The notes below the pieces were generated by a model. It was given only the letters and a program-made list of their open reading frames with translations. It was not told where the DNA came from and did not search any database. 64,000 nucleotides of DNA from Candidatus Bathyarchaeota archaeon (GTDB taxonomy: Archaea > Thermoproteota > Bathyarchaeia > Bathyarchaeales > Bathycorpusculaceae), in NCBI GenBank assembly GCA_963815095.1, contig CAWFFH010000005.1:105359-169358 (forward strand), read 5' to 3'. A program made the position numbers and the translations under genes. This document shows, piece after piece, positions 24,104-62,787 of this stretch. Numbering within the stretch: the first letter of the stretch is position 1; the number at the start of each line of letters is the position of its first letter.

Positions 24104-24120
24104 ATACGTTAACATGTTAC

Positions 24121-47814: not shown

Positions 47815-48818
47815 TTGATCCTGAACAAAAGGTAGATCCTGCCCTGCAAGAGGTAGCCGATAAGATTCTGCATGATTTGCCTGAAGAGGTAGCCATGGGC
47901 ATTTCCTTTAAGTTGCATGAAGGCGGCGATGCCTTAGTTTTAACTTATCCAAAGTCTTTGCATGGAACGCCTGATATGCACTTGCTAGATAATACGGTGC
48001 GAAGGTATAGTGGGGCTTTTGTAAGTCGGGGAAAAGACAACTCGTTTTATTTGATTCCCAAACCCAAATCTCAGCAGCCAGTGACTGAGCAGTCGAAGGA
48101 AGATCCTAAACCCGAAGCCACACCCGCCGCTCCTATAGAGGCGCCAAAACCTGTCGACGTCAAAACTGCCGAACCCACGCCAGCACCCACACCTGAAAAG
48201 CAAAAGTTGCCTACAGAACTGGCGAATGAAGCAACCGAAAAACGTAACAAAGAAACAACTGAAAAAACGCTTAAGCAGTCTAGCCCAATAGCCACTTTCA
48301 AAGCCAAAGTTTGCATAAGTTGCTCTGATGCCGATTCCTGCAGTGCTGAGCACATGCGGTTGTGTTTTAGTGTTTTGAAGATGGAATCGATGGCTGATAT
48401 TTCACGTTTGCTTGACAAATTAGCCACTGATTTGCCTTTGGCTCTTGGAGACTTGTCTGCTCAGCTCTCCATGTTTTCTGTAGCGGCGCCACAGCCTAAG
48501 CCGCCTACTGCGCCGTCTCAGCTGCCGAAGGTGCAGCGGGATACTAACCCGCGGGAAGGCTTCGAAGAGGATGGTTTAGTCTGGGTTAAAGTCTTCGAGA
48601 ATGGCACTGCCAACCTGAAGTACCTGAAGGCCTACGAGAAAGATAATCAGGGCAGGCAACGCTTTGCAGACTTAGCCAAATGGATTACTGACAAGAAAGA
48701 CAAGCCCTTCACTAAGCTGCATTTCTTGGGCGAGGAGTGCCAAGTTTTCCTTTGGAATTTCAATCAAGGCCCATCCGCGATTGGAAAAAGTAAGTGCAAA
48801 AGTCAAGGGAGCGCTTAA
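47811..48818 (+). CDS. viral hypothetical protein with Pro/Glu-rich linker and CxxC cluster
   Basis: 335-aa ORF, ATGA overlap with the previous gene. Confidence 0.7.
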   Translation: MIDPEQKVDPALQEVADKILHDLPEEVAMGISFKLHEGGDALVLTYPKSLHGTPDMHLLDNTVRRYSGAFVSRGKDNSFYLIPKPKSQQPVTEQSKEDPKPEATPAAPIEAPKPVDVKTAEPTPAPTPEKQKLPTELANEATEKRNKETTEKTLKQSSPIATFKAKVCISCSDADSCSAEHMRLCFSVLKMESMADISRLLDKLATDLPLALGDLSAQLSMFSVAAPQPKPPTAPSQLPKVQRDTNPREGFEEDGLVWVKVFENGTANLKYLKAYEKDNQGRQRFADLAKWITDKKDKPFTKLHFLGEECQVFLWNFNQGPSAIGKSKCKSQGSA

Positions 48819-48820
48819 TT

Positions 48821-49886
48821 TTTGGTTGTTGCATCTGATAATTCCTCGGGCAACATACCTAACACCTGTTTAAACAGTTTACCAACGGCTGACAAGCTTT
48901 GGGGGATAGAGCGTAGAGTTTACCAAGTTATCGACTGCTTCAGAAGTCGAATTAAAACCCTGTGAAATTGCCCGAATTATCCATAAAACCAAGAAACCCA
49001 AGCAAATTAAGCCCGGTCAATATACCACCGTTCGCGTAGCCTGTCGGAACCTTCTCAACAAAGGCTTGATCGTGCAGCCCTATGAGGGAACATACTGCAA
49101 CAAAATCACCCACGGGGTGCGGTTCGTTCCGCTTTGCGTGCATAATGTGACGTTGCTTGCTAAGGTTTGTCAGAATCTTAAGCATTGGGAAAACGATGAG
49201 TTTGTCGGTGGGGTGAAGATTCATGTTTGTTTTGGTAAAGAGCGCAAGCAGGTTACGGGTTATATTGCTTGTGACGTCGGGGGCATGTCGCATGATGCTT
49301 GTCTTTTGGCGCTTAATAGGTGGTTCGAAATTGTTGAGGGCAGATTGGGCTATTGCCTGCAGGATGTTGGTTTTGCAGACGGTGGAGTTTAACAAAGATT
49401 ACCATGGCGCCCGCATCGATGGTTTTCAATGTGTAACTAAGATGGAGCTCTACGGGATTATTGATCGGACTTACCAGAAGGAAGAGGATGTAATTCGGCG
49501 AGAACGGAAGATCGTTTTGCCTATGACGATGAACAAGTTTGAGTCTGAAATTCATCGACAAATGGAAGACATTGGCAAAGGGCAGGAATTCTTTGAGTTG
49601 CAGCAGGAGGTTAAGCGGCTTTCTGAAACTCAGAAATTTAGCAATAAGTTGCAGCTTAGAGCAGTTTAGGCTTTTGGAGGCTATGTATCAGACTCTTGGA
49701 AAAACGAGCGGTGGCAGGGCTGTTGAGAATTTGGAGGGTTTACTTAAGGAGTTTACTGAAGCTGCAAAGAATTTTTCAACTGAGGCTAGGGTGCTTCATG
49801 AAGCGATTGGTAAACTTGGCGATTTAGAGAGTGACCCGAAACGGCTTGCTGAGGGACAAAGACGGCTTGGGGAGTATGTGACTTGA
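48821..49886 (+). pseudogene. N-terminal wHTH-containing viral protein split by about 3 frameshifts (possibly replication/regulatory)
   Basis: Pieces LKPCEIARII..RVACRNLLNKGLI / LVLQTVEFNKDY / EQFRLLEAMY read through with single-base shifts near 48925, 49366 and 49657. Confidence 0.55.
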
Positions 49887-50041
49887 CTTTGCAGATGGAG
49901 TTAGCGCCTTGTCCTTGTCGCCGTTGCCCGTGGAAACTTAGGAGTAAATGCGAGCATTACGCGAGAGTTTGCTTAGAGCTGCGCAGTTGCAGTAACTGCG
50001 ATCATCCGCTTGAGCAATGCGTTAAGGAGGCTTCCGTTTGA
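49883..50041 (+). CDS. 52-aa Cys-rich viral microprotein
   Basis: TTGA overlap with the previous stop; CPCRRC...CEH...CSNCDH. Confidence 0.55.
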   Translation: MTLQMELAPCPCRRCPWKLRSKCEHYARVCLELRSCSNCDHPLEQCVKEASV

Positions 50042-50199
50042 CGGATAGCAGAGTTTTCAGAGAGCGGTTTTGTAGGCATCCCCGATTCAAGGTTTGTGCT
50101 CGATGCGGCAGAGCCTTTGTGGAAGAAGAGAGAATTCGGAAAGGGAAACAGTCTCGGAAAGCATATCACGAAAAATGCTGGGAGGCAATGCAGATTTGA
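50038..50199 (+). CDS. 53-aa zinc-finger microprotein
   Basis: AAGGAGG RBS, TTGA overlap, CARC...YHEKC. Confidence 0.6.
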   Translation: MTDSRVFRERFCRHPRFKVCARCGRAFVEEERIRKGKQSRKAYHEKCWEAMQI

Positions 50200-50386
50200 G
50201 TTTTAAGGGCTTTTTTGGCAGTAAAAAGCCGCTCAGAAGTTTTAGAAGGGCGCTTTTTGGGCTGTTTTTGCATGGACTTTTCCCATGCTTTGGGAAGTGC
50301 CGTTTTAGCAGTTGCTGATGTAGGCTACAGACTGTTAGTTTGGCTATTCGTGAATGTTAACGAAACATTGGAGTGTGCATTCTGTG

Positions 50387-50890
50387 ATGGAAACAAGTGA
50401 AAAACCTGCTCAGAGCATCAGAAAAAAGCGTTCTGAGAGCGAAAAAGTGGGGCGTCTGAAGTATATTCAGGAGCTTCTTATCCGTTTAAACGGCAAAATG
50501 GATTCCCTCGACCGAAGAGTTAGTAGAATTGAGAAGTACCGTAAACGAGACTTGGAGTTTGTACGCTCAGACATCGAGGACGTTTGCGCCGACGAGGTCG
50601 ACAGGGAAATTGTGCGTTTAGTGTTTGAAGCTGGCGATTTGGGTTTGTATCCTCGGGTTATTGCTCAGCGGCTTGAGAGTTTCAAGGTTACCCGCTTCCA
50701 AGTTGGTCGTAGAATTCAGCGGATGAATAGAGCGTTTCGGGAGCGGCTTGATGAGTCTTTGTTTGAGTTGCGGGGTTGGCGTTGGGCGCTATCCAGTTTT
50801 GCCGTTGGCGCTTGGGGAGAGAGCAGCGAGAAGGCTGAGGCGGAAGTGAAGTCGTTACGCCTGAAGAGGAAGCCTGGCAATGACTTCTAA
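50387..50890 (+). CDS. coiled-coil plus winged-helix DNA-binding protein
   Basis: DEVDREIV...GLYPRVIAQRL..VTRFQVGRRIQRMN. Confidence 0.65.
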   Translation: METSEKPAQSIRKKRSESEKVGRLKYIQELLIRLNGKMDSLDRRVSRIEKYRKRDLEFVRSDIEDVCADEVDREIVRLVFEAGDLGLYPRVIAQRLESFKVTRFQVGRRIQRMNRAFRERLDESLFELRGWRWALSSFAVGAWGESSEKAEAEVKSLRLKRKPGNDF

Positions 50891-51506
50891 GGTTGATTCC
50901 CAGCAAGAGTTCTATCTTAAGGGCATCTACGCCGTTGAAGTGGTTTCTGATGTGAAGGATGGATTAGTTGAGGTTCGGGCGAAAACAACCTTTCTTGCAT
51001 ACGAGCAACTATTCGAAGGGGCAGTCGTCAGTTTAGGGTGGGCACGACTGCGAAGCGCTGGGTTAGGAAGAGGTGAGGTTTTGAAGGTTCCGTTACCTCT
51101 TATTTGGTCACATCGGCGCTCGGGTAGCCAAAGGGCACGTTTGAGCAGTGCAAAGCAAGGCTTAAATCTGCATCACTTAAATAAGAAAAAACATACGTTC
51201 GGTGAACTTCAAATGGCTACTTGTCCCCAGCATAGCGGCATGGAAGAAAAAATCAACCACATCAGCAAAGAGACTCAAGAGATGCATTCTGCTCTAATCG
51301 GCAGTGATATGAGCAGTGGTTTGGTTAAGAAAGTCGCTGACATTGATTCTAAACTCGATTTGTTTATTGCTGGGCAGAAAGCTCAACAGGAACTCGAGGA
51401 GCAAAAGCGAAAAGAAAAGTCACGAGTTATAAAGGGTTTGGCTGCCATTGGTGCAACAGTTGCGATGCTTGTAACATCGCTTGCCGCTTGGTTCCGTGGA
51501 AGTTGA
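50880..51506 (+). CDS. ORF probably comprising two genes; the 3' gene (ATG 51213) is a coiled-coil plus C-terminal TM protein (XhlA/holin-like)
   Basis: Internal GGTGA RBS before MATCPQHSG; C-terminal GLAAIGATVAMLVTSLAAWF helix. Confidence 0.55.
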   Translation: MTSKVDSQQEFYLKGIYAVEVVSDVKDGLVEVRAKTTFLAYEQLFEGAVVSLGWARLRSAGLGRGEVLKVPLPLIWSHRRSGSQRARLSSAKQGLNLHHLNKKKHTFGELQMATCPQHSGMEEKINHISKETQEMHSALIGSDMSSGLVKKVADIDSKLDLFIAGQKAQQELEEQKRKEKSRVIKGLAAIGATVAMLVTSLAAWFRGS

Positions 51507-51559
51507 TATGTGAAAATTTTTAACCTCTTAGCGCTGAGACAGTCCCGAAGGTACCTAGT

Positions 51560-52166
51560 TTGACGTATAAGTATAAGCTCAAAAATGGGCAAGAGATCGA
51601 GACTTCTGTTTTTGTGCCTCCGGAGTACGAGGGCATGCTTGAGGATCTCCGTGAACTTAGCCGTGATGGCCAGAACCCAAATAAAATGACTGACAAGCAA
51701 AAACAGGCAACTTGGCATAGCCTAACTAAATTCGCGTGGGTTTACCCTATAGTTACCAACAAAGAAGGCTGTTTTGCAGATGGAGAGCAGCGAGTCGATA
51801 CTTGCATTAGTCACGAAGAGTTTTTTGGTCCCGTTTTGCGACTTCAGATAGAGGATATCGACCGACGTCTTCTAAGGCAGGTTTTAAACAAGCTCAAAGG
51901 CACCCATGATAAACTACTCGACGCTGAGGAATTCAAACGTATAACAGAAGCAAACAGAGCTGACGACCTAAAAGCACTGCTTAACATCTCAAACGGTACG
52001 CTGGAGCGATATGACAAAATCCTCGATGCAGCTGAGAGCTCCACTGGCGCCATCCTTGATAGCACCTTTGAAGTTATCGTCGCATGCAAAGACGAGCCCG
52101 AACAGAAAACGAGTATTTGACGAATTAAAAGCTCAGGGGTATGACGCACGGATTTTAACATTGTAA
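51560..52166 (+). CDS. ParB/Srx-like domain protein (frameshift near 52108)
   Basis: QNPNKM..YPIVTN..ADGEQRV; removing one A restores the C-terminus EPEQKRVFDELKAQGYDARILTL*. Confidence 0.7.
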
Positions 52167-52765
52167 AAGAGTGGCCTAAGCCCGCAAGTTTTCGCAGCCA
52201 AAGCGTCGCAAGCAGCTTCACCATTACCGCTGAGAAGATGGATAAACACTTTATCGGCAAACTACCTATTGAAGATCTAGACTGGAAGATCGGAGTTATC
52301 ACAGGTCGCAGCGGCACTGGAAAAACAACCATTGCAAAGCAACTTTTCCCCGGTGAGTACATCAACAGTTTCACGTATGGATCTGAGACTGTCCTGGATG
52401 ATTTCCCAGAGAACCTCACAGTTGCCGATATTACCCAAGCACTCTGCAGTGTAGGTTTTGCGTCTCCTCCGGATTGGCTAAAGTGTTATGCAAATCTTAG
52501 TCAGGGAGAAAAGATGAGGGTTGACGTTGCACGTGCTCTCTTGTTGTCAGGAAAGCGGGTAGTGTTTGATGAGTTTACCAGCGTAATTGACAGGGAGATT
52601 GCACACATTGCCTGCATGGCTATCGCAAAATCTGTGCGCAAAAGCTGCAAGCAGTTTATAGCCGTAACCTGCCACCGTGACGTAATTGACTGGTTAGAGC
52701 CAGATTGGGTGCTCTGCACTGACGATATGAGTTTTGATAAAAAAAAGAATCCACCCAACAATTGA
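52151..52765 (+). CDS. viral ABC-type ATPase (start uncertain; first in-frame ATG at 52238)
   Basis: GRSGTGKTT, LSQGEKMR, VVFDEFTS, VTCH, WLEPDW; frame open from DFNIVKEW. Confidence 0.85.
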   Translation, partial: DFNIVKEWPKPASFRSQSVASSFTITAEKMDKHFIGKLPIEDLDWKIGVITGRSGTGKTTIAKQLFPGEYINSFTYGSETVLDDFPENLTVADITQALCSVGFASPPDWLKCYANLSQGEKMRVDVARALLLSGKRVVFDEFTSVIDREIAHIACMAIAKSVRKSCKQFIAVTCHRDVIDWLEPDWVLCTDDMSFDKKKNPPNN

Positions 52766-53516
52766 GCTCGAAATCCACCAAGTTCCTCTCAACCTCTGGA
52801 CACTGTTTAGGGAATATCACTATCTAAACACGGTGATTGCTCCATTCTGCCGTTGTTATGCAGCTTTTCTCAAAGGTAATCCAGTTGCGTTTATTGCTGT
52901 TCAGCCCATCAAGTTTGGAACCCGTTTTAACCGCGTTAGCCGCCTAGTAGTTTTGCCTGACTATCAAGGTATTGGGATTGGCCGCAAACTGCTTAACTGG
53001 ACTGCAGAGCATTACAAGAAAATGGACAATGCGCCTTTTGTAATTATCACGAGCAATCCGCAGCTGATTCGCACGGGGCTAAAGGGCTGGAAGCTTAACA
53101 GAGCAGGTAGAGGCGGCAAGATCAATAACTCTAGCTTCCAAAAGACGATGAAAGGTCCTTATAGGGGCAATCCCGTCGCGTTTATTGCTGTGCAGCCTAT
53201 CAAGTTTGGAACACGTTTTAACCGCGTCAGCCGCCTAGTAGTTTTGCCAGACTATCAAGGAATTGGAGTTGGACGCAGATTGCTTAACTGGACTGCAGAG
53301 CATTACAAAAAAATGGACAATGCGCCGTTTGTTATAATTACTAGTAATCCTCAACTGATTCGCACAGGGCTAAAGGGATGGAAGCTTAACAGAGCAGGAA
53401 GAGGCGGCAAGATCAACAACTCTAGCTTCCAAAAGACAATGAAAGGTCCTTACAGTCACGGAGCCGAAAACCGCCTCACAGTTTCGCTGGAATACTTAGG
53501 AAAACCTAACATTTAG
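52734..53516 (+). CDS. GNAT acetyltransferase with internal tandem duplication
   Basis: FREYHYLN and two copies of SRLVVLPDYQGIG(I/V)G (acetyl-CoA motif A). Confidence 0.85.
   Translation: MIKKRIHPTIELEIHQVPLNLWTLFREYHYLNTVIAPFCRCYAAFLKGNPVAFIAVQPIKFGTRFNRVSRLVVLPDYQGIGIGRKLLNWTAEHYKKMDNAPFVIITSNPQLIRTGLKGWKLNRAGRGGKINNSSFQKTMKGPYRGNPVAFIAVQPIKFGTRFNRVSRLVVLPDYQGIGVGRRLLNWTAEHYKKMDNAPFVIITSNPQLIRTGLKGWKLNRAGRGGKINNSSFQKTMKGPYSHGAENRLTVSLEYLGKPNI
52875..53453 (+). repeat. tandem duplication, 2 x 288 nt (period 291 nt, 97 codons)
   Basis: 52875-53162 vs 53166-53453: 29 differences by manual alignment, 27 synonymous. Confidence 0.95.
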
Positions 53517-53666
53517 CAACCATGTCAGGGAAACGATAGAATCATAAGACCTTTTCAAGCGATGTGTTGACTCATTCGTCACGTTTTCAGAAGTTTTAAG
53601 CTAACATTTAACATTTCAAGAAAATTTTAAATATTAGTAAATATAGAGTTATTTACTGACCGAAAT

Positions 53667-54146
53667 GTGCCTAATTGTTCAGTGTCTTCGCCTTTAAGTC
53701 AAAGCCAAAAAGCGGTGTGGTCATTAATCACCAAAGGCTTCTCAGTAGTTAACATAGCTGAAAAACTCAACAGAACACGTCAATATGTGAATCAAACCAA
53801 AATTGCTGCAGAAACCAAACTAACTACCACCCTTCTGGATGTTGCACAAGCAAATGATCTACAAATAACAAAACTACAACCAAAAGAAGGCATACTTTTA
53901 GGATATCATCCAGCATTAAAACGCAAAGCTATACTCACTTACAGCACAAATTATGGTATAAAAGTGTGGTATTGGCATGACAACCCTGAAGAAGTAACCG
54001 ACTCAGGCTTCCTAAACCAGACAAGACAGTGCCTACTCGACATTGCCAGAGAACGAGGAATAGAAATCAACGGCTCTGATTCAATTCACCCAGCCAAACT
54101 GGCACACATGATTTTCTCCCAACTTATTCCAGAGTTGAAAACATGA
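53667..54146 (+). CDS. HTH DNA-binding protein (cargo)
   Basis: LSQSQKAVW...VVNIAEKLNRTRQYVNQ HTH; ATGA overlap with the next gene. Confidence 0.7.
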   Translation: MPNCSVSSPLSQSQKAVWSLITKGFSVVNIAEKLNRTRQYVNQTKIAAETKLTTTLLDVAQANDLQITKLQPKEGILLGYHPALKRKAILTYSTNYGIKVWYWHDNPEEVTDSGFLNQTRQCLLDIARERGIEINGSDSIHPAKLAHMIFSQLIPELKT

Positions 54147-54755
54147 CCGTAAAGAAAAATTTGGAAAATCGAATACGAGGTTGGTTTCCCCAAGAACCGA
54201 CAATGATCAGTGCGCGATTAAAGGTGAACCATGAATACAAGCAGCCGCCTTTGATAATTCCTCCCCAATACAATGCCAGCGCGACAAAAATAGCTGGCGG
54301 ATTTGCAGTTTTTTGGATATTGTTTTTAGGGTTAGAGCTTGTTATGTCTTTCAATCTTGAATTTCACGCTATTCCACCCTTTCAAATTATGGCTTGGTTA
54401 TTCGTTGGTTTAACAATAGGTATAATTTCAAACACTATGCTTACTAAAAATCAACTCACTCGATTATCAAACGATTACCAATTCACACCAAATAAAAAAG
54501 ACCGGCTTATTCTTCTTTTACCATTAGTTTCATTCTTATTCTTGGCGGTTTTGTTAATTGGTTTCTCTACTCTTCATTGCAGGCATGGCTAATTTCAATT
54601 CTTTCGTATACGGTTTCTTTTTTTCTAATAAAAACTTTATTGTTTGCAGCCTTTGAAAGAAAGCAAAATATGCGTCTAATGCAAAGTGGCTGGAAATAAC
54701 TGTTTTTCTTGTGCCAAAAGCACCAAACAACAACGACCCAACTGGTAGTTCCTAG
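54143..54755 (+). pseudogene. multi-TM membrane protein with N-terminal LENRIRGWFPQEP motif, frameshifted
   Basis: ORF 54143-54592 continues in another frame (ILGGFVNWFLY...FERKQNMRLMQSGW) and probably again to TAG at ~54755. Confidence 0.6.
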
Positions 54756-54978
54756 ATTAGAGATTGGCTTCAACCTTTTCCCACGGTTGGGTGCATATAC
54801 CTCTTTAGATTACCTGAGTTGTCAGCTTTGTCAATCATTAAGAACTAATTTTGGAGAGGAAGTAGACTTTTTCCACGGTTGAGTGCATCCACTCTTTATC
54901 TTTTTTATGTCAAGAAAGTTTGACTAAGGTCGGTCAAGAAACGTTTACGAATAACCTTTTATTGCCTATAGTTTCTTA

Positions 54979-55824
54979 ATGGAATACATGAACAGTGCAA
55001 ACAAAGGTTTAGCAGTATTCATTATTCTAATCATAACAGTCTCAATCCTAAGTATACTGATGGTTCAACCAGCATTTGCTACCCAAATAATAACTAAAAC
55101 TGAAATACCTAAGCCAACCATACCCCAATTTAGTTTAGCCCTTTATGATTCGTCTTACGATGTTCCTGCCTTTTCAACAACCAACCCCTATAATGGACAA
55201 CAAACAACACAACCTTTCTCCCACTACGAAGAAAGAACCTTAGTGTTCACAATTCAAAACCAAGTATTAACTACATTTCGAGACAACAGCTATAATGTCA
55301 ACATATACTATAATATTCGCTATAAGGGACATTTTGACCAAAACCAAAATTGGATTGAATTGTTTGGTCCAAACTTTGGATATGTTAACCCCACATCTGG
55401 ACCACAAACAATCTACATAGCCAATGGAACCTATAATTCAGAATTTGATATTAGACAGTTTTCTGTCGGTTTCCCTGCCGATGGTCAAATAGACTTTCAA
55501 GTTGAAGCACTCATTGGGTATCCAACTACTCCCACTATCTTTACAGGACAAGAAAGCGGATGGAGCAATACACAAACAGTAACATTAAACGAAGCAGTAA
55601 CACCATTGCCTTCAACCTTACCAGAGATATATAGCTCATACTTACCAAGCATCTCACCAACTGCTTCTTTATCCTCAACCCCAACATCAACGCCTTCAAC
55701 AACTCCAACCGTTCCAGAGTTTTCATGGTTAGCAATTTTGCCCTTGTTTGCTTCATTGTTCTTTATCGCTATAGTAGTCAAGCATCGAAATAGACAGAAA
55801 CCCATCGACCAAGACCTTGACTAA
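54979..55824 (+). CDS. secreted surface protein with Ser/Thr/Pro linker and PEF-CTERM-type sorting signal
   Basis: Signal peptide ending PAFA; TPTVPEF + TM + KHR basic cluster. Confidence 0.8.
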   Translation: MEYMNSANKGLAVFIILIITVSILSILMVQPAFATQIITKTEIPKPTIPQFSLALYDSSYDVPAFSTTNPYNGQQTTQPFSHYEERTLVFTIQNQVLTTFRDNSYNVNIYYNIRYKGHFDQNQNWIELFGPNFGYVNPTSGPQTIYIANGTYNSEFDIRQFSVGFPADGQIDFQVEALIGYPTTPTIFTGQESGWSNTQTVTLNEAVTPLPSTLPEIYSSYLPSISPTASLSSTPTSTPSTTPTVPEFSWLAILPLFASLFFIAIVVKHRNRQKPIDQDLD

Positions 55825-55836
55825 AAAATTAGTCAA
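55817..55836. promoter_or_regulatory. perfect inverted repeat TTGACTAA-AAAA-TTAGTCAA, candidate operator
   Basis: Located about 37 nt upstream of the wHTH-membrane gene; a related TTGAC-N8-GTCAA lies at ~54920. Confidence 0.45.
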
Positions 55837-55872
55837 TAAACCCTAAATAAACAAAACAACAACTCCTCACAT

Positions 55873-56553
55873 ATGAGTAAAGGAATAGCTTCACTTCATA
55901 AGATTCTAAAGGATGAAACACGCCAAAAAATCATAATGTTGCTAAACCAAAAAGAAAGCCTTAGCTATAGCGATTTGATGGAAGGCTCAGAAGTTCTAAG
56001 TACGGGACTTCTAAACTACCACTTGAAAGTTTTAGGTGACCTTTTACAGAAGAATAGAATTGGAGAGTACCAGCTCTCAGAAAAAGGCAAACTTGCCCAT
56101 AGATGTTTAACGACCGATTTTCCAGAAGAACATGCCTTAAGAGATAAAAGGATCTTCAAGGCTTGGATAGTTTTTACCATAGCATCCATTATTATTGCTA
56201 TTCTTTATGGCAATTTCCAAAACATTCCGATTGAAAGAACAGCCACAGTAATTTTCATTTTGTTGTTATCGACAGGTTTTGCCTTCTACATTAGAGTTAA
56301 ACCATCCACTTCAGGCAATAGAGTATTCTTCATCGCGATTGGAGCTTTTGGCATTGGGTTCATTTTTTGGTTTCTTTTAACCTCGTTGATAATGTTTAGC
56401 GGTCTTCGTTCGCTAATAATTGGATCAACCGGAAGTTTTGGTGATGATTTTGTTGTAACAATAAACCTCATTATAAGTTGGATTGTTGGCGGATGGGTAG
56501 GTGACTGGATAGGCAGCAAAAGAAACTATGTTATTCCAATGATAAGAGTCTAA
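55873..56553 (+). CDS. ArsR-like wHTH regulator fused to a multi-TM domain
   Basis: LKDETRQKII..LSYSDL..GLLNYHLKVL..YQLSEKG, followed by four hydrophobic helices. Confidence 0.8.
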   Translation: MSKGIASLHKILKDETRQKIIMLLNQKESLSYSDLMEGSEVLSTGLLNYHLKVLGDLLQKNRIGEYQLSEKGKLAHRCLTTDFPEEHALRDKRIFKAWIVFTIASIIIAILYGNFQNIPIERTATVIFILLLSTGFAFYIRVKPSTSGNRVFFIAIGAFGIGFIFWFLLTSLIMFSGLRSLIIGSTGSFGDDFVVTINLIISWIVGGWVGDWIGSKRNYVIPMIRV

Positions 56554-56632
56554 ACAAGTAATGACCTTTACCCACGGCAAGGAGTACCACACCTCTAAAT
56601 AATTTAAGCAAGGTAAATCATACTTATCTAAG

Positions 56633-56867
56633 ATGACTATGAAATACATTGGTTTATTTGGAATATTGAGCATCACAATTGGGGGAGGGTTTCTTGTTTA
56701 TGTTCTATCTTCAGTCATCATTAATGCCTTGAAAAACCCCATATAGTTCTGGACTCAGTACGCTGTCAATGATGAGCTTGTATGGTGGACTTATTGCCTT
56801 TTTGTTTGTTGGTGTAGGGATATGGTTAATTGTCAACGATGCAAAACCTGAGATAAAGAATTCCTAA
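56633..56867 (+). pseudogene. small 2-TM membrane protein, frameshifted at a C4 run
   Basis: MTMKYIGLFGILSITIGGGFLVYVLSS.. joins ..YSSGLSTLSMMSLYGGLIAFLFVGVGIWLIV.. when one C is removed (~56738). Confidence 0.5.
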
Positions 56868-57167
56868 TATATTTTATATATTTTATTTTAGTAGCCGTTA
56901 ACTCGAATCAATTACTTTTTCCCAAGCATTTGTATATCCACCCTACATATGTATGAATTTCAACCGCTAAGAACTATTTTTGGAGTAGATCTTTTCCCAC
57001 GGTTGAGTGTACCCACCTTCCTTTGGATATTTACAGGATAAGTGGTTTTCTAAAATGCCAATAGCTTATTGCGAGCACGCGAGATGGATGTTGTTAAGGG
57101 GCTTAGAAGGCGCCCGATATGTGAAAGCATATAATTCTACAGATTTGTAGAAAATAAGGGGGTACCC

Positions 57168-57713
57168 TTGAAGCGTAGTAAGGAAAGATTGCTAAATCGG
57201 CGCCGTCGCATGTTGACTTTGCTTGGCCTAAACAACAGTATATCCAGCGTAGTTGATCAGCTCAGCCGCGACTTTGGTGTCAGCAAGGTCGCAATATATG
57301 CTGACTATGAGCGGCGCAAAGATTGGATTCCAGTTGTAGAAGCCATGGATGATTATGCCACATTTATGCAGGCGCGTTTGGATTTTCTCGATAGGGAAGC
57401 CATCACTATGATAACTGCCATAGAGAACAGCGCCGACGCAAAAAACAAGTTGGTGAAAATTGGAGCGATAAATACTGCTCTAAGAGTTACTCATGAGCAG
57501 ATAACTCTGGCTCAGGAGCGGGGCTACATTGAGAAGAGACCTATTGCAATTTTGGAGTGCCCTGATTCGTTGCCCTATGAGCGTGATTCTGACATAAAGA
57601 AAATATTGCTCGAAGAGATGGAGCGCCAAAAACAGCAGCGCAGATTAGAAGATGAGCGGAGAGCAGCCGATGCCGCAAAATGTGGAAAAGCTGAATCTGA
57701 GACAGGGCATTGA
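57168..57713 (+). CDS. terS: putative terminase small subunit
   Basis: N-terminal HTH (LSRDFGVSKVAIYAD); overlaps the TerL start. Confidence 0.6.
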   Translation: MKRSKERLLNRRRRMLTLLGLNNSISSVVDQLSRDFGVSKVAIYADYERRKDWIPVVEAMDDYATFMQARLDFLDREAITMITAIENSADAKNKLVKIGAINTALRVTHEQITLAQERGYIEKRPIAILECPDSLPYERDSDIKKILLEEMERQKQQRRLEDERRAADAAKCGKAESETGH

Positions 57714-58971
57714 TTGTTTCTGCTATGTTCCCCATGCCGCGCAGGTATCTTTCCACTGTGGACGCTACTATTATGCTCAACGGGCTTGTAGCTGTGGAAC
57801 TGGCAGTGGTAAAACAAAATGCGGGTTAGCCGAGGACATACATTGGGCTCTGGAGTATCCAGGGAGTGTTGGCTATATCTTCGAACCCAGCTATCCGATG
57901 ATGAAGCGTATTTTGTTCCCCACATTGGAGTCAAAGGACTTTTTTGGCTGTAGATTCCCATATACCCAAAACCCCTATGTTGCAAACTTTAGCAGGGACG
58001 ATTTGCGATTAGATTGGATAAATGGGTCTCAGTGGTGGTTTGTCTCTCTGGAGGATCCTGAGCGGGCTGAGGGTCCTAACGTTGATTATGCGCACATCGA
58101 TGAGGCTCGCTTAGTGCGGCATTTTGATACTGCTTGGTTGACTGTGGTTCGTCGGCTTCGTAAGTCCGGGCGCTGTTCTGTACCTATTGAGCCTGGCGTT
58201 TGGGTTACAACAACGCCGGACTCTCCGGGAACACAGCTCTATAATGTCATCGAAAACCCTCAGACAGCTAGCCCCGAGATGCATGTCTACCGCTGGAGTA
58301 TCTATCAAAACCCCACGCTGCCCAAGAGCTTCATTGCTGAGATCGTGCGCACTCACCACGGAGGGCTGGCTGATCGGTTTATCTATGGCAAGTTTGCAGC
58401 AGTTGGAGCTGGGACTTTGCCGTTTGATTCTGCTAAGCATGTGCGGGAGATCGATCGGGAGCTAATCGAGTATATGCGCTATGGTGTGGACTTTGGCTGG
58501 AGCGCTCCCTCGGCGGTTATGGCTAATGCGTTTGATCATGATGGCCGAGGCTACTTTGTCGATGAATTCTACAAGACTGAGACTACTGATGAAGAGTTGC
58601 TTGAAGCATGCGTTGAGTTGGAAGACACCTGGGGTAGAGGACCATTCTTTTGCGATGGGCGGTTTCCTCAGTCGATTATGAAGTTGCGCCGTGGCTATAC
58701 CAAACCCAATGGTACGTACATAAGAGGCGTGAATGCAGTTGCCTACACAATTAAGCGAGAAGATGGCCTACGTGAACTCAACAGCCGTTTTGCCGTTGCA
58801 GGCGACGGGTTGCCCAGACAGTTCGTGAGCAAGTGCTGCGCCAATTTTATAAGCGAAGCCCTCGAATACCGAGAAGACGTGAAAGAACGTGACCACGCTA
58901 TTGATGCAGGACGCTATAGCCTACCAGTCACGCCTGTTTGCAAGATCTCTGCTAAGAGGGCTCGAATTTGA
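57652..58971 (+). CDS. terL: terminase large subunit
   Basis: GTGSGKT Walker A, AHIDEAR Walker B, TTTP, GVDFGW and DHAIDAGRY nuclease motifs. Confidence 0.92.
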   Translation: MSGEQPMPQNVEKLNLRQGIDCFCYVPHAAQVSFHCGRYYYAQRACSCGTGSGKTKCGLAEDIHWALEYPGSVGYIFEPSYPMMKRILFPTLESKDFFGCRFPYTQNPYVANFSRDDLRLDWINGSQWWFVSLEDPERAEGPNVDYAHIDEARLVRHFDTAWLTVVRRLRKSGRCSVPIEPGVWVTTTPDSPGTQLYNVIENPQTASPEMHVYRWSIYQNPTLPKSFIAEIVRTHHGGLADRFIYGKFAAVGAGTLPFDSAKHVREIDRELIEYMRYGVDFGWSAPSAVMANAFDHDGRGYFVDEFYKTETTDEELLEACVELEDTWGRGPFFCDGRFPQSIMKLRRGYTKPNGTYIRGVNAVAYTIKREDGLRELNSRFAVAGDGLPRQFVSKCCANFISEALEYREDVKERDHAIDAGRYSLPVTPVCKISAKRARI

Positions 58972-60614
58972 GTAGCAAAGAAGAAAAACACGCTCGTCTC
59001 AGTGCAATTAGGGCAGTGATAACTGGTCAGCTGCCGACAATAGAGAAGACCGTTATTCAAGTCATAAATATAAAACGTGGTCGCCAAAAAATCAGAAAAG
59101 AAAAAGCAAAAGGGCGCCTAGCAAATGCCTCAAGCCGCTGGACAGACAAGATCCCCCACCCATCGGTTATGTCTAGGCTTGATGAGATTAACGCAGATCC
59201 GGACGTCGAAACAGCTATCACTAATTTGACAGAAATGGTTGCCGCTGGCTTCTTTACAGAAATGGGTCAAGACGTCCCAAAAGTAACTGACCAAACAACA
59301 GGTAAGGAAAAGCCGCACCCCAATAAGGTTAAACTCGATGCCTGGGCAGAGAAGCACAGAGCTGATGAAGTCCTAAAGATGGCTGTCAGGGAAGCATTTG
59401 AGAAAGGCTTTTTCGCTATAGATTTAGACCCTGACGATAACTTTGAGCCCAAAGTGCTGCCATCCGAAAGCATGTACATGTGGCGCCATGTAGATGAGAA
59501 AAAACCCTACAAATTCACCCAGGAGTTCGGTGGGCAAGTCACTGAAACTTGGGAAGGCGACGATCTTGAGCGTATTATTTGGTGGGCTCACAAAGAGACG
59601 CCGATGAACCCGTATGGCAAAGCACTTGCTTTTTGTCTTGAGGACTTTGTCGACTCAAGGCGAGAGATGACAGAGGATGGAAATGCAGTTCTGCACCGCT
59701 TGGGCTACCCAGATCGCAGGTTTGAATGCAGAGACGACAAAGTCAGAGACCTGATCTATGATGAGTATACAAAGAAGGAACCGGATGAAGCTATTTTCCT
59801 TGCGGGAGTTAACGAGGGTGACATTAACGAGAAGTCATCGCAGCTGCAAAACATCCGCATTAACTTTGAAGGCTTCCAGCAGAGCAACGACCAACGCATC
59901 ACCAATAACTTAAATGCGCCTACAATGAGCACCCTCAAAAATAGCACTGAAGCTAGCGCTACAAAGATGCTTGAGTTTTTCGAGAACTATGCCCAGGGCA
60001 TTCAATTTAGCCTCAAACGTCTCATTGAAAACTCGATATTTCAAAAGGTATTGGGCAAGCCGTCTACTTCTAACCCTATCCCGAACTTGACTTGGGGGAG
60101 AAAACGCACAGGCCTTGAAAAGTTAACAGGTAAAGACGTTGCGGAGCTAAAAACATCTGGCTGCATTACCTTCGATCAAGCTCAGGACTTACTCAAAAAG
60201 CTAGGTGTTCCACTAAAAGACTTGCCGCCTCAATCTGTTCAGGATCCCACTGCAGTTCCATCTGTTGGCCTTCCGCAAATGCCACAGCTAGACCCGGCGA
60301 GAATGAAAACACTGAAGACTTCTCTTGAGGTATTGGAGAAAAATTATGCTGAGAAAAACATCAGCCTAGACGAGGCTTTCAAAGAGGGCGCTAAAGCCAT
60401 ACGGGCACATGTTGACGCAGCAAAACGCGAGGTCCTAACTCGCCTGCAGAAAGATATACAGGGCGCCAAGTTGTCGCCGGAAGCTGAAAGCTACTTCAAG
60501 GTCCTACAGTTCAACTTAGGCAGTCAGTTTAAGCAAAAGCTACTGCCTACAGGCACCCATACGGAGTGCGGCCATCCTGAAGGAAAGCAGTTCACAGTCA
60601 CCGTCGAAGCTTGA
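58968..60614 (+). CDS. portal protein
   Basis: Position after TerL, 548 aa, DPDVETAI, H....NPYG, STEASA motifs. Confidence 0.75.
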   Translation: MSSKEEKHARLSAIRAVITGQLPTIEKTVIQVINIKRGRQKIRKEKAKGRLANASSRWTDKIPHPSVMSRLDEINADPDVETAITNLTEMVAAGFFTEMGQDVPKVTDQTTGKEKPHPNKVKLDAWAEKHRADEVLKMAVREAFEKGFFAIDLDPDDNFEPKVLPSESMYMWRHVDEKKPYKFTQEFGGQVTETWEGDDLERIIWWAHKETPMNPYGKALAFCLEDFVDSRREMTEDGNAVLHRLGYPDRRFECRDDKVRDLIYDEYTKKEPDEAIFLAGVNEGDINEKSSQLQNIRINFEGFQQSNDQRITNNLNAPTMSTLKNSTEASATKMLEFFENYAQGIQFSLKRLIENSIFQKVLGKPSTSNPIPNLTWGRKRTGLEKLTGKDVAELKTSGCITFDQAQDLLKKLGVPLKDLPPQSVQDPTAVPSVGLPQMPQLDPARMKTLKTSLEVLEKNYAEKNISLDEAFKEGAKAIRAHVDAAKREVLTRLQKDIQGAKLSPEAESYFKVLQFNLGSQFKQKLLPTGTHTECGHPEGKQFTVTVEA

Positions 60615-60657
60615 AGTCGCAGCGGCAGTTGCAGTCGTCCTTGTCTATCTTGAAGAG

Positions 60658-60977
60658 TTGGAGTGGCAGCGCCCAAAGATTTCTCCTGAAGACTACGCAG
60701 GGCATGGAGTAAGCTATTTCTCGGAAACTGATTGGTGGTATTATCAGACAGTAACCGATAACCGCACCTGTTTTCCCTGCAATAGCTTTGACAAAACAAC
60801 CTTCACTGGAGATGAGTTGCTTTCCCTTTTTCCTTATCTGGAAATTGGGGATGAAAACACTATTTTGCATGGGTGCATCCGAATTGCCGCTGCATCCTAA
60901 TTCGCATAACAGATCCCCTGGACTACATAGGGCTGGATATCGGCGTTACGCCTGATTGGTTGCCAGGGATGTTTTAA
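60658..60977 (+). pseudogene. MuF/SPP1 gp7-like minor head protein, frameshifted
   Basis: DNRTCFPC in one frame and HPNCRC in another; adding one T at the T-run at ~60865 joins them. Confidence 0.7.
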
Positions 60978-60986
60978 GGTGATTTT

Positions 60987-61145
60987 ATGAGTGAAGAACA
61001 AGCCTACAAGAAAGCTTCCAAACGTGAGTTCAACACAAAATCTAAATGTGTAATCTGCAAAAAGCGAATCGTTGGCAAGGCATGGCGCATCGATGATAAT
61101 CGGTATGCGTGCACGGCCTGCAATAATAGGAGACCCGGAAGTTAA
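60987..61145 (+). CDS. 52-aa zinc-finger protein
   Basis: AGGTGA RBS; CVIC...CTAC; TAATG overlap with the next gene. Confidence 0.65.
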   Translation: MSEEQAYKKASKREFNTKSKCVICKKRIVGKAWRIDDNRYACTACNNRRPGS

Positions 61146-62664
61146 TGGCAAGGCATCCTGACTTTGAACGTATTAGAAATGAGTTCATCAAGTATTATGG
61201 CGCCGAGGCAGGCGATCAAGAGTATCAAGCTTGGCTTAAAGCCCTAAACTTAGATGAAACTCAGTCGTATGGTTCCTCGCAGCGGGAGAAATTCAGCTTC
61301 ATAAAGCCAATGCTCGCTAAACTCAAAGAGGACAAAGAGAACGTCTACTACAAAGTGCTCGTTGGGTTTCCTCTAACAAGTATGAACGACCACCTCTACA
61401 CTCAAAGTAAGCTAACAGCTGCAGCAGAAACCCTAGTTGATGCGTTTGACTGTAACCTCAATCATCTGCCAGGTTATGATCTTCCAGGAGTGCGTTATGT
61501 TGCAGCCAAATTTGAGGACGGCGCCGTTGAGGCAGTTCTTAAAGTTCCAAAAGTCTCTACGATGCAACATTGACTTAACCCAGCACATGTATGACATCGG
61601 CGAAGGTAAGCCTCTTTATCGAGTGGATAGACGAGCACGTTATTGTTAACCAAAGCCTTGAGGCAACAGAAATGGGCGGGTTCCATTTTGTCGGTTCTGC
61701 CCTTCTAACTAAGGATACACTGCCCGGTATTCCTCTCTCAAGGATATTTCCACTCGAACACGTGGTCTCTGAGGCGTTGAGTGCATCACAAAAGATAAAT
61801 GGAAAAACCGTAAAAATCCAAATCAAAGGTTTAACGAACATGTCAGAAGGAACTCAAAGCTGCCCAGTTGGTCAACATTGGGACGAGAACAAAGGCGCCT
61901 GCGTGCCCGACGAAGGTACAGGCAAAACCCCCGAGGGAACAAGCGTTAGTGTAGGAGATAATATCGCGGACAGCAGCAGGAAGCCCATTGAAGCTGCCGC
62001 CTTGGCGTTAAAGTTAGCTAAGACTTCTCAAGAGGCAGCACAGCTATTTGCTGAGCGCATGAAAAAGGACCCGCTCTTTGCCTATGCGGTTGCTGAAATT
62101 GAACGCCTAAAGACTAGTCAAAGCGCCCTAGCGATCTCCAGCCTCAATGTGGCAAAGGCGCGTGTGGAATCGGAGTTAGAGAACCTCAAGTTAACAACTG
62201 CAGCTCAACTCGAAAGTGCCAAAAATGAAGCGGCAGCAAAGTTGAAGGGTGCGGAGCTTAAGGCAGCCAAAGCTGAGGAGAACTTTATCGAGGAGAGCGG
62301 ACGTCGACAAAGAGCCGAAGGAAAAGTCGAAGACCTTGAAAAGCAGGTTGAGCGTCTCGAGAATAAAGCCTCCGAAAACAACAAGAGCACGATACAGGAC
62401 GGCGCCAGAATAAAGGATTTGGAGCGTCGCTTGCAGGATAGTGAAGAGGCAAACCAGCAGCTAAAAGACGAAAACGAGAAGCTGGTCAAGAAAAAAGAAG
62501 AGATAGACGGCAAATACAGAGATCAACTCAAAAAGAACCTGGACCTTAGCAAAGAGCTCACAATTACAAATGAGGATCTGCTCCAGACGTCTCAGAGGGC
62601 TGAAAAACTCGACACGGACCTCAAAAAAGCCAAACGGTTAGCAAAAATAACCGTGAATATGTAG
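61145..62664 (+). CDS. prohead protease/scaffolding protein (two apparent frameshifts at ~61550 and ~61615)
   Basis: SMND..Y, LNH, SLE protease-like motifs then a long coiled coil; bridging frame SLRCNIDLTQHMYDIGEGKPL links ORFs 61145-61573 and 61591-62664. Confidence 0.65.
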
Positions 62665-62787
62665 TCACGACCCAACGGTCAAGACCTCGACAACCTCCCT
62701 GGATGATGGGAGGCGGCAGACGCTATGCCTAAGCTGCCGTCAGCGCACCGAGCGCACCAATGGGCACATAAAAAAGGTGAAAAAAAT
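62665..62787 (+). other. GC-rich structured leader upstream of the capsid gene
   Basis: Hairpins CCTCCC/GGGAGG (62694-62713) and CGGCAG/CTGCCG (62714-62739); AGCGCACC repeated twice. Confidence 0.45.

What the first reader, a model, noticed from the sequence alone, without database searches (positions are those of the whole stretch)
53540..57030. Repeat-delimited gene-cassette array inside the provirus (candidate integron-like capture system)
Seen: an AT-richer, co-oriented block of host-like genes (HTH + membrane pair, PEF-CTERM surface protein, ArsR-TM fusion, small 2-TM protein) interrupts the viral GNAT-TerS junction. It carries five same-orientation copies of a ~33-bp motif: ccttttcccacggttgggtgcatatacctcttt (54774), ctttttccacggttgagtgcatccactcttt (54867), cctttacccacggcaaggagtaccacacctct (56565), ctttttcccaagcatttgtatatccaccct (56915, degenerate), cttttcccacggttgagtgtacccaccttccttt (56991). 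Copies 1, 3 and 4 sit about 20, 12 and 48 nt after stop codons (copies 1 and 4 rely on frameshift-corrected stops). Copies 2 and 5 follow them after short gene-less gaps and share an upstream TAAGAACTA(A/T)TTTTGGAG extension. The 3' half has dyad symmetry (GAGTG-CATC-CACTC in copy 2). Inference: like attC sites, these may be recombination sites that let surface/regulator cassettes be captured and shuffled. They do not match the attC RYYYAAC..GTTRRRY pattern, CRISPR periodicity or IS ends. No recombinase is visible in the window.
Basis: partly seen in the sequence, partly recalled or inferred. Interest (0 to 1): 0.82.

Follow-up and report, generated by a model that had tools for sequence, protein, structure and literature searches.

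The report
Cassette-boundary recombination motif in archaeal islands
A conserved 30-letter DNA motif marks the edges of swappable gene cassettes, mostly for membrane and surface proteins, in this group of archaea; it looks like a cassette-exchange system that works like an integron but uses different parts.

Summary
It is not specific to this provirus. A sequence model finds it in 59 of 120 genomes of the genus, with 1-20 copies in co-oriented clusters, and it has no exact match in IMG/VR.

Genome G112 carries the same decayed provirus at the same tRNA-Arg (96-98% identical). Between GNAT and TerS it holds ~10.9 kb of cassettes where the window holds 3.65 kb. Homology breaks at 53555 and resumes at 54867, both at the GAC(C)|TTTT step of a motif. 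Two further G000/G112 differences map to the same step: a virus remnant joined to a host motif, and a one-gene insertion or deletion. Flanks of motif copies assort independently (21 pairs share only the upstream flank, 14 only the downstream flank, 1 both).

I read the motif as the recombination site of a cassette system that works like an integron. It is not an integron: there is no attC pattern and no IntI, and the recombinase is unidentified. The main rival is a regulatory or terminator element at which recombination is incidental. No RNA data were available to test that.

The parts
52734..53516 (+). GNAT acetyltransferase gene of the provirus remnant, carrying an internal 290-bp tandem duplication. 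It is the left viral flank of the array.
   Evidence: Pfam Acetyltransf_1 E=5e-19. Duplication 52875-53164 / 53166-53455 at 90%. Adjacent to TerS in 5 of 6 IMG/VR relatives compared.
53548..53580 (+). Motif copy m0. Only the 5' part (GACCTTTTC) is canonical. This is the left junction of the array.
   Evidence: Identity with G112 runs through ...AAGACCTTTT (53555) and stops there; G112 has a full motif at this place. G000:C4 remnant: homology also ends here.
53556..54866 (+). Cassette present in the window and absent from the G112 provirus: HTH gene (53667-54146), frameshifted membrane-protein gene (54143-~54756), motif m1 and a spacer.
   Evidence: No counterpart in G112 between the two breakpoints. 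The HTH+TM pair is 82% identical to a host operon in G103 and 70-78% to many genomes of the genus. The HTH has only weak LuxR/RcsB-type similarity.
54772..54806 (+). Motif copy m1 (strong).
   Evidence: Exact core at 54778; nhmmer 29.3 bits; R1 31.5 bits.
54807..54861 (+). Gene-less spacer, read as the remnant of the 3' end of a reverse-strand small gene (...LQN*).
   Evidence: Matches the sequence after a motif in G022, where an 87-aa minus-strand ORF ends ...MLQN. Repeated at 56945-56985 (D10).
54862..54897 (+). Motif copy m2 (strong). This is the right junction of the window-specific segment.
   Evidence: Exact core at 54870. 97.6% identity with G112 resumes at 54867, the C before TTTTT.
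54979..55824 (+). Gene for a surface protein with a signal peptide and a PEF-CTERM-like tail.
   Evidence: ORF of 281 aa with no Pfam or NCBIfam hit. The same 281-aa ORF is in the G112 array. Promoter and tail are similar to paralogues in G000:C3.
55873..56553 (+). Gene for an ArsR-type HTH (DUF7347) fused to membrane segments.
   Evidence: Pfam DUF7347 E=7e-9; HTH_5 below cut-off. Homologue after a motif at G000:C6:96382.
56560..56596 (+). Motif copy m3 (weak: TTTACCCACGGCAAGGAG).
   Evidence: E=60 with the seed model. The G112 orthologue scores 8.8 and its duplicate 16.1. A contig in run X4 carries m3 plus the next gene behind a different upstream gene, with the break at 56560.
56634..56867 (+). 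Small two-TM protein gene, frameshifted in this genome near 56745.
   Evidence: In-frame TAG at 56745 with the TM helix continuing in the +1 frame. Intact 77-78 aa ORFs in G112. Contigs of run X3 carry two 1-nt insertions at 56736 and 56742.
56912..56944 (+). Motif copy m4 (degenerate).
   Evidence: 73% to copy m5 (D3). Not found by the models in G000; the G112 orthologue scores 9.7.
56985..57023 (+). Motif copy m5 (strong). Last motif of the array, joined to the viral TerS upstream arm.
   Evidence: Exact core at 56994; 35.4 bits. The same motif-plus-arm junction occurs in the virus remnants at G000:C4:288648 and G112:C4. A contig of run X3 diverges at 57017.
57168..58971 (+). TerS (57168-57713, named by position) and TerL (57652-58971) of the provirus remnant. 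This is the right viral flank.
   Evidence: Terminase_6N E=6e-9. Synteny with 13 IMG/VR loci.

Best explanation
The motif aGACC|TTTTCCCACGGTTGGGTGTAcccacc is the recombination site that bounds mobile gene cassettes in this archaeal genus. Arrays of co-oriented motifs separate units of one to a few genes, mostly for membrane, secreted or PEF-CTERM-like proteins and small HTH regulators.

Shown: the breakpoints between near-identical loci fall at the step between GAC(C) and the T-run. The stretch up to GACC, which often holds the stop codon of the preceding gene, stays with the upstream unit. TTTTCCCACGG... stays with the downstream unit. Circular DNA carrying a motif, here a virus with the motif between GNAT and TerS, has been joined to host motifs.

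Inferred: exchange is catalysed in trans by a site-specific recombinase that I could not identify. Cassettes are excised and inserted as in integrons. The 3.65-kb block in the window is such an array sitting in a decayed provirus, and it has kept turning over in place since G000 and G112 diverged.
For: (1) The same provirus at the same tRNA-Arg in G112 has a different cassette set, with breaks at 53555 and 54867, both inside motifs at GAC(C)|TTTT.

(2) At the locus G000:C8 / G112:C4 the shared left flank ends at ...GAGAC. G112 continues with the motif remainder plus the viral TerS arm; G000 continues with its own motif.

(3) At G000:C6 / G112:C6 a one-gene unit (123 aa) is present or absent, bounded on the left by GAC|TTTTTT and on the right by TAGAA|TTTTTCCC.

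(4) Virus remnants in permuted order, motif-TerS'-GNAT', lie at two different host loci with different internal deletions. This is what joining a circle to the chromosome at the motif would give.

(5) At m0 the two parental motifs can have shared no more than about 8-9 nt (GACCTTTTC), which is short for homologous recombination.

(6) Of 36 pairs of copies with a related flank, 21 share only the upstream flank, 14 only the downstream flank and 1 both. One pair shares 393 nt at 97% upstream and diverges inside the motif.

(7) Orientation is uniform in 22 of 24 genomic clusters with 2 or more copies and in 10 of 10 metagenome contigs with 2 or more copies. It holds even around reverse-oriented genes: the reverse DUF7347/ArsR unit is flanked by two + motifs in G128 and G013, and in G000:C6 by one strong and one weak + motif.

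(8) There are 4 gene-less units among 54.

(9) Cargo bias: 73 of 91 co-oriented cassette ORFs have a TM-like segment, against 54 of 206 and 27 of 148 in two control contigs.

(10) The motif is found in 59 of 120 genomes of the genus. Reversed-pattern controls gave 1 hit in G000 and 1 hit across 41 genomes.
Against: No recombinase is linked to the arrays. G000 has no Y1 (PF01797) or serine recombinase (PF00239) match. The tyrosine integrases near arrays (G013, G014, degenerate in G000:C3) use a tRNA 3' end as att, not the motif. The 432-aa integrase family shows no link to motif presence: G019 has 11 copies but no match, while the motif-free G057, G059 and G060 have matches.

No excised circle was seen. 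The one 'goes back' joint in the contigs (57015 to 54813, depth 2, with 15 other letters between) fits a paralogous copy like that in G022.

Not every boundary is at a motif. The distal edge of the C8/G112:C4 array is not. The G000:C4-end island differs from G112 starting at a tRNA 3' end. In the G128 array only 11 motif hits (9 at the stricter threshold) were found among some 26 called genes.

The site has no clear inverted-repeat core of the kind tyrosine recombinases use, and hairpin covariation is inconclusive. Deletions between direct repeats need no enzyme. All four precisely mapped junctions come from one genome pair.
Confidence: 0.58

Rival explanations
1. The motif is a gene-boundary expression signal for island genes: an oligo-T terminator or insulator, or the binding site of a regulator such as the DUF7347/ArsR-type proteins encoded in the arrays. 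Recombination at it is incidental. As the only sequence shared between otherwise unrelated neighbours, it is where microhomology-mediated template switching, slippage or short-homology recombination happens.
For: The motif is always intergenic and mostly co-oriented with genes. About 33 of 47 copies have a same-strand start codon within 300 nt downstream, often behind a TATA-like AAATCTTTTAAGC box 43-62 nt from the motif start. About 20 of 47 follow a same-strand stop codon within 50 nt, and in several the stop is the TAG/TGA of tAGACC/TGACC. It carries a T4-5 run. It is conserved as primary sequence without convincing structural covariation, as a protein-binding site would be. HTH genes are common in the arrays. 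No recombinase was found.
Against: One role does not fit all positions. The same + motif lies in convergent gaps (after G128 rc 14255, before the stop of a reverse gene), in divergent gaps (G128 rc 15273, G000:C6:96382, G013 21783) and in tandem without a gene (m1-m2, m4-m5). Spacing to the promoter-like box varies by about 20 nt. There are only 1-20 copies per genome, all in islands, so it is not the general terminator. Insertions and replacements, and the joining of a whole virus at 8-10 nt of identity at the same step each time, are not what slippage alone predicts.
Confidence: 0.25
2. The motif is the attachment site of this virus family only (attP between GNAT and TerS, attB in the host). 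The arrays are scars of repeated viral integrations and aberrant excisions.
For: Two permuted virus remnants lie next to motifs. In G000:C4 the remnant is flanked by a motif on both sides. In G112:C4 only the left motif remains and none follows the GNAT end. The motif sits between two viral modules. Virus remnants abut arrays in G011:C10, G128 and G000:C6.
Against: Apart from the permuted remnant at G000:C4 none of the 54 inter-motif units shows recognisably viral genes, but no per-unit screen against viral proteins was made. The 13 related IMG/VR loci have no strong motif hit (best E=0.087), and the collection has 0 exact matches. The window's provirus and its G112 orthologue sit next to tRNA-Arg, and 2 of 5 related viral records encode end-located tyrosine integrases, as tRNA-integrating viruses do. 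The one-gene indel at C6 involves no viral DNA.
Confidence: 0.08
3. The cassettes are non-autonomous single-strand transposons of the IS200/IS605 / PATE or REP-RAYT kind. In this reading GACC is the cleavage or target site and the downstream GGGTG..CACCC dyad is the subterminal hairpin.
For: The layout is a conserved cleavage-like step about 15 nt upstream of a possible hairpin. Many copies have GTAG just before it. Units lack their own transposase.
Against: There is no Y1 transposase match in G000 (0 matches, with controls positive in 6 of 14 genomes). Support for the hairpin is inconclusive. There is no second, right-end hairpin; the upstream side of the junction is often coding sequence.
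Confidence: 0.04

Closest known systems
Integrons, and in particular CALINs (clusters of attC sites lacking an integrase), including the archaeal integrons of Ghaly et al. 2022 (PMC9668308; I read passages of the main text)
   Same: Both are co-oriented arrays of short recombination sites separating mostly promoter-proximal single genes or small gene sets. Some units hold reverse-oriented genes. Cassette content differs between close relatives at the sites. The crossover falls at a fixed step at one edge of the site, so each site in an array is a hybrid, and the stop codon of the cassette gene often lies in the site. Most arrays have no adjacent integrase.
   Different: The site is about 30 nt of conserved primary sequence, not an imperfect palindrome with RYYYAAC...GTTRRRY. 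No IntI with the additional domain is present, and no attI or Pc can be named. The described archaeal integrons carry canonical attC sites and IntI (PMC9668308). Here many units seem to carry their own promoter-like box. The cargo is strongly biased towards envelope proteins.
Shufflons and other tyrosine-recombinase switching systems for surface proteins
   Same: Both have asymmetric short sites with one conserved arm and a fixed crossover, and both serve to vary surface proteins.
   Different: Shufflon sites are inverted and cause inversions within one gene. Here the sites are direct and whole genes are gained, lost or replaced. No Rci-like gene lies next to the arrays.
tRNA-targeting archaeal integrative elements (integrases ending ...GFEYV...LFRKRK)
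   Same: Several motif arrays lie inside or beside such islands, for example in G013: tRNA, integrase, array, then a 26-bp repeat of the tRNA end.
   Different: The att site of these integrases is the tRNA 3' end, which is unrelated to the motif. The array varies while the island ends stay conserved (G013 against G014).
Moron or accessory-gene hot spots of tailed viruses
   Same: The GNAT-TerS junction is variable in relatives: L035 has 1.95 kb of other genes there and L050 a small zinc-finger ORF.
   Different: In the window and in G112 the insert is a motif-delimited array shared with host islands, and its turnover maps to the motif.

Membership tests
Integron (sensu IntegronFinder) | An IntI tyrosine recombinase with the IntI-specific additional domain next to the array | tested here: not met
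   PF00589 search of G000 gave 7 matches, none on contig C5 and none adjacent to an array except degenerate fragments at C3:10128-10549, which belong to a tRNA-island integrase family. The IntI-specific domain profile was not available to test.
Integron (sensu IntegronFinder) | attC sites: an imperfect palindrome with R''/L''...L'/R' boxes (RYYYAAC...GTTRRRY) and a conserved fold | tested here: not met
   The consensus of 45 copies has no such boxes. Two candidate helices show no convincing covariation. No Rfam family matched above its gathering score in 53000-57600. The attC covariance model itself was not available.
Integron (sensu IntegronFinder) | Cassette arrays: co-oriented sites, and cassette content variable between relatives at the sites | tested here: met
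   Orientation is uniform in 22 of 24 clusters and in 10 of 10 metagenome contigs. G000 and G112 differ at the motifs.
Integron (sensu IntegronFinder) | Excision of cassettes as circles and insertion at attI | not testable with these tools
   Only short Logan contigs of 4 DNA runs from one study were available, with no raw reads.
Viral/plasmid att site of a tyrosine integrase (attP/attB) | Direct repeats of the site flank an integrated element that encodes the integrase | tested here: inconclusive
   Direct motif copies flank a permuted virus remnant at G000:C4. No integrase is present in the provirus remnant, and the related viruses lack the motif.
IS200/IS605-PATE / REP-RAYT | An HUH Y1 transposase or RAYT in the genome, and subterminal hairpins at both ends | tested here: not met
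   0 matches to PF01797 in G000 (98% complete). The hairpin is not supported.
Serine-recombinase sites (res/att) | A serine recombinase gene is present | tested here: not met
   0 matches to PF00239 in G000.
Intrinsic/oligo-T archaeal terminator | Lies at the 3' ends of co-directional genes and coincides with transcript 3' ends | tested here: inconclusive
   About 20 of 47 copies lie within 50 nt after a same-strand stop codon, but at least 7 lie in divergent gaps with no upstream co-directional gene. No RNA run was listed.
CRISPR array | Regularly spaced identical repeats with short spacers | tested here: not met
   Spacing ranges from 65 to 6018 nt (median 944), and the units hold genes.

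The most novel reading that the evidence does not exclude
This archaeal genus runs a previously undescribed cassette-exchange system that works like an integron but is built from different parts. It has a ~30-nt primary-sequence site cut at GACC|TTTT and a trans-acting recombinase of an unrecognised kind. The system shuffles envelope-protein and regulator genes between chromosomal islands and the genomes of infecting viruses. Hosts could use it to vary their surface, and viruses could pick up host surface genes through it.
Probability: 0.45. Interest if true: 0.9.

Novelty: new variant of a known kind. Interest (0 to 1): 0.8.

Why it matters
Integrons are the only well-understood gene-cassette capture systems. 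The archaeal ones described so far are canonical, with IntI and attC. A second, unrelated site doing the same job would show that cassette platforms evolved more than once.

It would also give a handle on how uncultured soil and sediment archaea diversify their cell envelope, which is the interface with viruses. And it would show a direct route by which host surface genes enter viral genomes and viral DNA enters host arrays.

The question is directly testable. The site is short and the crossover step is mapped to a few bases. Two near-identical loci with different cassette sets are in hand.

Tried and rejected
RNA evidence: the look-up of sequencing runs listed no RNA holder, so nothing can be said about transcript ends.

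DNA runs: 4 runs from one study, held as short contigs at low depth. They gave loose ends at or near motifs (54793, 56560, 57017) and one 'goes back 2203' joint. I do not count that joint as a circle because 15 other letters lie between its sides and the arrangement matches a paralogous copy in G022.

Rfam: only two sub-threshold chance hits in 53000-57600.

Structure: two helices were tested on 45 copies, with no convincing covariation. I dropped 2 of the 47 nhmmer hits (L057:9322 and L067:5182) before aligning. They are an orthologous pair lying inside or at the end of a reverse-strand ORF, and they are the only pair sharing both flanks.

Recombinase hunt: PF00589 in G000 and in 5 relatives; PF01797 and PF00239 in G000; one integrase family across 120 genomes (74 of 120 positive, unrelated to motif presence); Pfam on array-flanking ORFs of G128 and G000, which gave only an IS240-type DDE transposase 8 kb away. 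None could be tied to the motif. The other two intact G000 integrases were fetched but not profiled.

Free 'empty' virus: an exact pattern for the GNAT arm plus motif found nothing in metagenome or viral contigs.

G000/G112 comparison: five G000 array loci were compared with G112 (C5, C8, C6, C4-end, C3). For C3 only flank matches were found. The C4-end island differs from a tRNA end on, with no motif involved.

Ideas considered and dropped without a formal test:
- A pac/cos site. One copy would suffice, and relatives lack the motif.
- An origin-recognition box. The arrays are co-oriented between genes.
- A Pyl/Sec recoding element. All three stop codons occur before the motif.
- A G-quadruplex.

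Supplementary files of PMC9668308 (data S1, S3) may list arrays in related taxa; I could not see them.

Full report
WHAT IS THERE. The window is the last 64 kb of contig C5 of a 2.69-Mb genome in 9 contigs. From a tRNA-Arg at 46586-46664 to the contig end lies a virus-like element: a methyltransferase-like gene, unknown genes, an ATPase, GNAT, then TerS, TerL, portal and an HK97-type capsid gene. Between GNAT (stop at 53516) and TerS (start at 57168) lies a 3.65-kb block. Its GC is 0.371, against 0.465 and 0.479 for the viral flanks. The block holds an HTH gene, a frameshifted membrane-protein gene, a gene for a secreted protein with a PEF-CTERM-like tail, an ArsR-type (DUF7347) HTH fused to membrane segments, and a frameshifted small two-TM gene.

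THE MOTIF IN THE WINDOW. The core TTYCCACGGTTGRGTG occurs exactly three times (54778, 54870, 56994). No shuffle in 100 reaches the observed number of near-matches. A further 5'-half copy lies at 53548, at the very left edge of the block. Aligned over 45 copies, the conserved part is GACCTTTTCCCACGGTTGGGTGTA followed by a looser C/T-rich tail.

THE MOTIF ELSEWHERE. It is not confined to the provirus.
- G000 has 12 strong copies and several weak ones, in clusters on six contigs.
- A sequence-only covariance model built from the 45 copies finds the motif in 59 of 120 genomes of the genus, with 1 to 20 copies each.
- An exact pattern finds it in 26 metagenome contigs and in no IMG/VR contig.
- The 13 IMG/VR relatives of the virus found through TerL have no convincing copy.
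- Outside the genus, 1 of 16 genomes of the same order had a 2-mismatch match.

ANATOMY OF THE ARRAYS. Clusters are co-oriented: 22 of 24 genomic clusters with two or more copies and 10 of 10 metagenome contigs with two or more copies. The 54 stretches between neighbouring copies are 65-6018 nt long (median 944). They hold 91 ORFs of at least 60 aa in the motif's orientation and 14 in the opposite one, and four hold none. Of the 91 co-oriented ORFs, 73 have a TM-like segment, against 54 of 206 and 27 of 148 ORFs on two control contigs.

In many copies the stop codon of the preceding gene is the TAG or TGA of tAGACC / TGACC. Downstream there is often a TATA-like box, or pairs of GTCAAGAAAnnTTTGAC dyads, and then a start codon. 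The motif keeps its orientation around reverse-oriented genes: a reverse DUF7347/ArsR gene is flanked by two + motifs in G128 and G013, and in G000:C6 by one strong and one weak + motif. So the same element lies in co-directional, convergent, divergent and gene-less gaps. A plain terminator or a plain promoter element does not explain that.

THE DECISIVE COMPARISON. G112 is syntenic with G000 here. The host genes, the same tRNA-Arg and the same virus-like element are 95-97% identical. Between GNAT and TerS, G112 has about 10.9 kb with at least ten motif copies.
- Identity runs from the left through ...AATCATAAGACCTTTT (window 53555). It stops there, inside a motif.
- It resumes at window 54867, the C before TTTTTCCACGG of copy m2, and continues at 97.6% to beyond the portal gene.
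- The window-only segment is the HTH/membrane-gene unit with m1. The G112-only segment is 8.6 kb of other small membrane-protein genes and two large reverse genes.
- G112 also holds a diverged second copy of the m3-small-gene-m4-m5 stretch.

TWO MORE LOCI SHOW THE SAME STEP. At G000:C8 / G112:C4 the shared flank ends at ...AAGCTGAGAC. G000 goes on with its own motif. G112 goes on with TTTTCCCAGGGTTGAG... and the viral TerS upstream arm, then the first 13 or so codons of TerS fused to most of GNAT. At G000:C6 / G112:C6 a 123-aa gene is present only in G000, between ...GAC|TTTTTTCTCACG... and ...TAGAA|TTTTTCCCGC..., where G112 has a single ...GACC|TTTTTCC....

A second permuted virus remnant lies at G000:C4:288362-288684. 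It reads motif, 210 nt of TerS arm, 46 nt of GNAT end, motif, with the two viral pieces joined at a CCTAA microhomology. The two remnants are at different loci. They have different internal deletions that cannot be derived from one another, because G000 keeps more of TerS and G112 keeps more of GNAT. The simplest reading is two joinings of a circular virus genome, carrying the motif between GNAT and TerS, to host motifs, each followed by decay.

FLANKS ASSORT INDEPENDENTLY. Among copies with a related flank next to the motif, 21 pairs share only the upstream side, 14 only the downstream side and 1 both. One pair in G011 shares 393 nt at 97% upstream and diverges after GACCTTTTCCCACGGCA. Short contigs from four soil metagenome runs of one study show other strains in which sequence diverges at 54793, 56560 and 57017, all at or near motifs. 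These are single low-depth contigs and I give them little weight.

WHAT DOES NOT FIT OR IS MISSING.
- No recombinase can be tied to the motif.
- Tyrosine integrases next to some arrays belong to tRNA-integrating islands. In G013 the island runs tRNA, integrase, array, 26-bp repeat of the tRNA end. G013 and G014 share the island ends but not the array.
- Not all differences between G000 and G112 are at motifs.
- Many gene boundaries inside arrays lack the motif.
- The four mapped junctions come from one pair of genomes.
- Hairpin covariation is inconclusive.
- There are no RNA data.

MECHANISM, WITH STATUS. Shown: the motif is the place where otherwise near-identical loci switch to unrelated DNA. 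The switch falls within a few bases of GAC(C)|TTTT in 4 of 4 precisely mapped junctions. Viral DNA has been joined to host motifs. Array polarity is independent of gene orientation. Inferred: a trans-acting site-specific recombinase cuts at that step, cassettes move as circles, and the array in the window was seeded when a virus carrying the motif recombined with host arrays. I put this at about 0.58. The reading that the motif is an expression signal with incidental recombination is at about 0.25. A virus-only att site is at about 0.08, and HUH-type elements at about 0.04.

COMPARISON WITH THE KNOWN. The system works like an integron or CALIN. It fails the membership tests that could be run: no attC pattern and no IntI. 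The archaeal integrons described so far are canonical (PMC9668308, passages read). Full-text searches for the motif words and for cassette systems in Bathyarchaeia found nothing relevant. Those searches cover only the held open-access library.

VERDICT. It is widened from 'inside the provirus' to a genus-wide island system. The enzyme and the intermediates remain open.

Noticed in passing
G000:C4:~1380-2679, C4:83619-84914, C3:1398550-1399866, C3:1060812-1062104 (outside the window): An IS110-like element (348-aa transposase ORF, ~1.3 kb, copies 99-100% identical) is inserted in all 4 copies at the same point of the coding sequence for the basic tail of PEF-CTERM-like proteins (...TTGCTTTTTAGA | AGGCATCGAAAA...). 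It is a sequence-specific IS that targets a sorting-signal tail. One copy lies 45 nt upstream of a motif.
   Followed up: partly
window 52875-53164 and 53166-53455: A 290-bp tandem duplication (90% identity) inside the GNAT gene gives a 260-aa two-domain ORF. The G112 orthologue has a single copy.
   Followed up: partly
window 46670-64000; G112:C3 (L075, L079-L081); G000:C6:97942-98600: The 'provirus' is a decayed remnant. In G112 the orthologous element next to the same tRNA-Arg ends just after the capsid gene (window ~63951), with no tail genes or integrase. A further remnant at G000:C6 joins the methyltransferase 5' part directly to the same capsid-gene end.
   Followed up: partly
L062+L057 (G013:C1:1166000-1194000), positions ~14160-24455 of the joined stretch: A ~10.3-kb island integrated at a tRNA gene: tRNA, 304-aa tyrosine integrase, small TM gene, a motif array with PEF-CTERM-like genes, then a 26-bp direct repeat of the tRNA 3' end. 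G014 has the same integrase (94% aa identity) with a different array. G000:C3:10128-10549 holds degenerate fragments of it.
   Followed up: partly
window 54909-54951 and after many motif copies in other genomes: Paired dyads GTCAAGAAAGTTTGAC / GTCAAGAAACGTTTAC lie upstream of PEF-CTERM-like genes. A related perfect dyad TTGACTAAAAAATTAGTCAA lies at 55818-55837, before the ArsR-TM gene. They look like operators for the HTH proteins of the arrays.
   Followed up: no
window 54143-54756 and 56634-56867: Two cassette genes are frameshifted in G000, near 54580 and near 56745 at an A5C4 run. The small TM gene is intact in G112, and contigs of run X3 carry 1-nt insertions there. Either the genes are decaying or these are homopolymer errors of the assembly.
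   Followed up: partly
window 55810-55824: The last codons of the PEF-CTERM-like gene read ...CAAGACCTTGACTAA. This is a possible truncated 5' part of a motif (AAGACCTT) at a gene boundary that otherwise has none.
   Followed up: no
window 57155-57170 and the same place in L035, L046, L050: A conserved GGGGGTAC(C/A)C box lies directly before the TTG/ATG start of TerS in all relatives looked at. It is probably the ribosome-binding site of the packaging operon.
   Followed up: no
L071+L072 read reversed (G128:C9), positions 26280-26856: A reverse-oriented TerS fragment lies at the distal end of the largest array seen, which has 11 motif hits (9 at the stricter threshold) over 16 kb. This is another case of virus debris at an array edge.
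   Followed up: no
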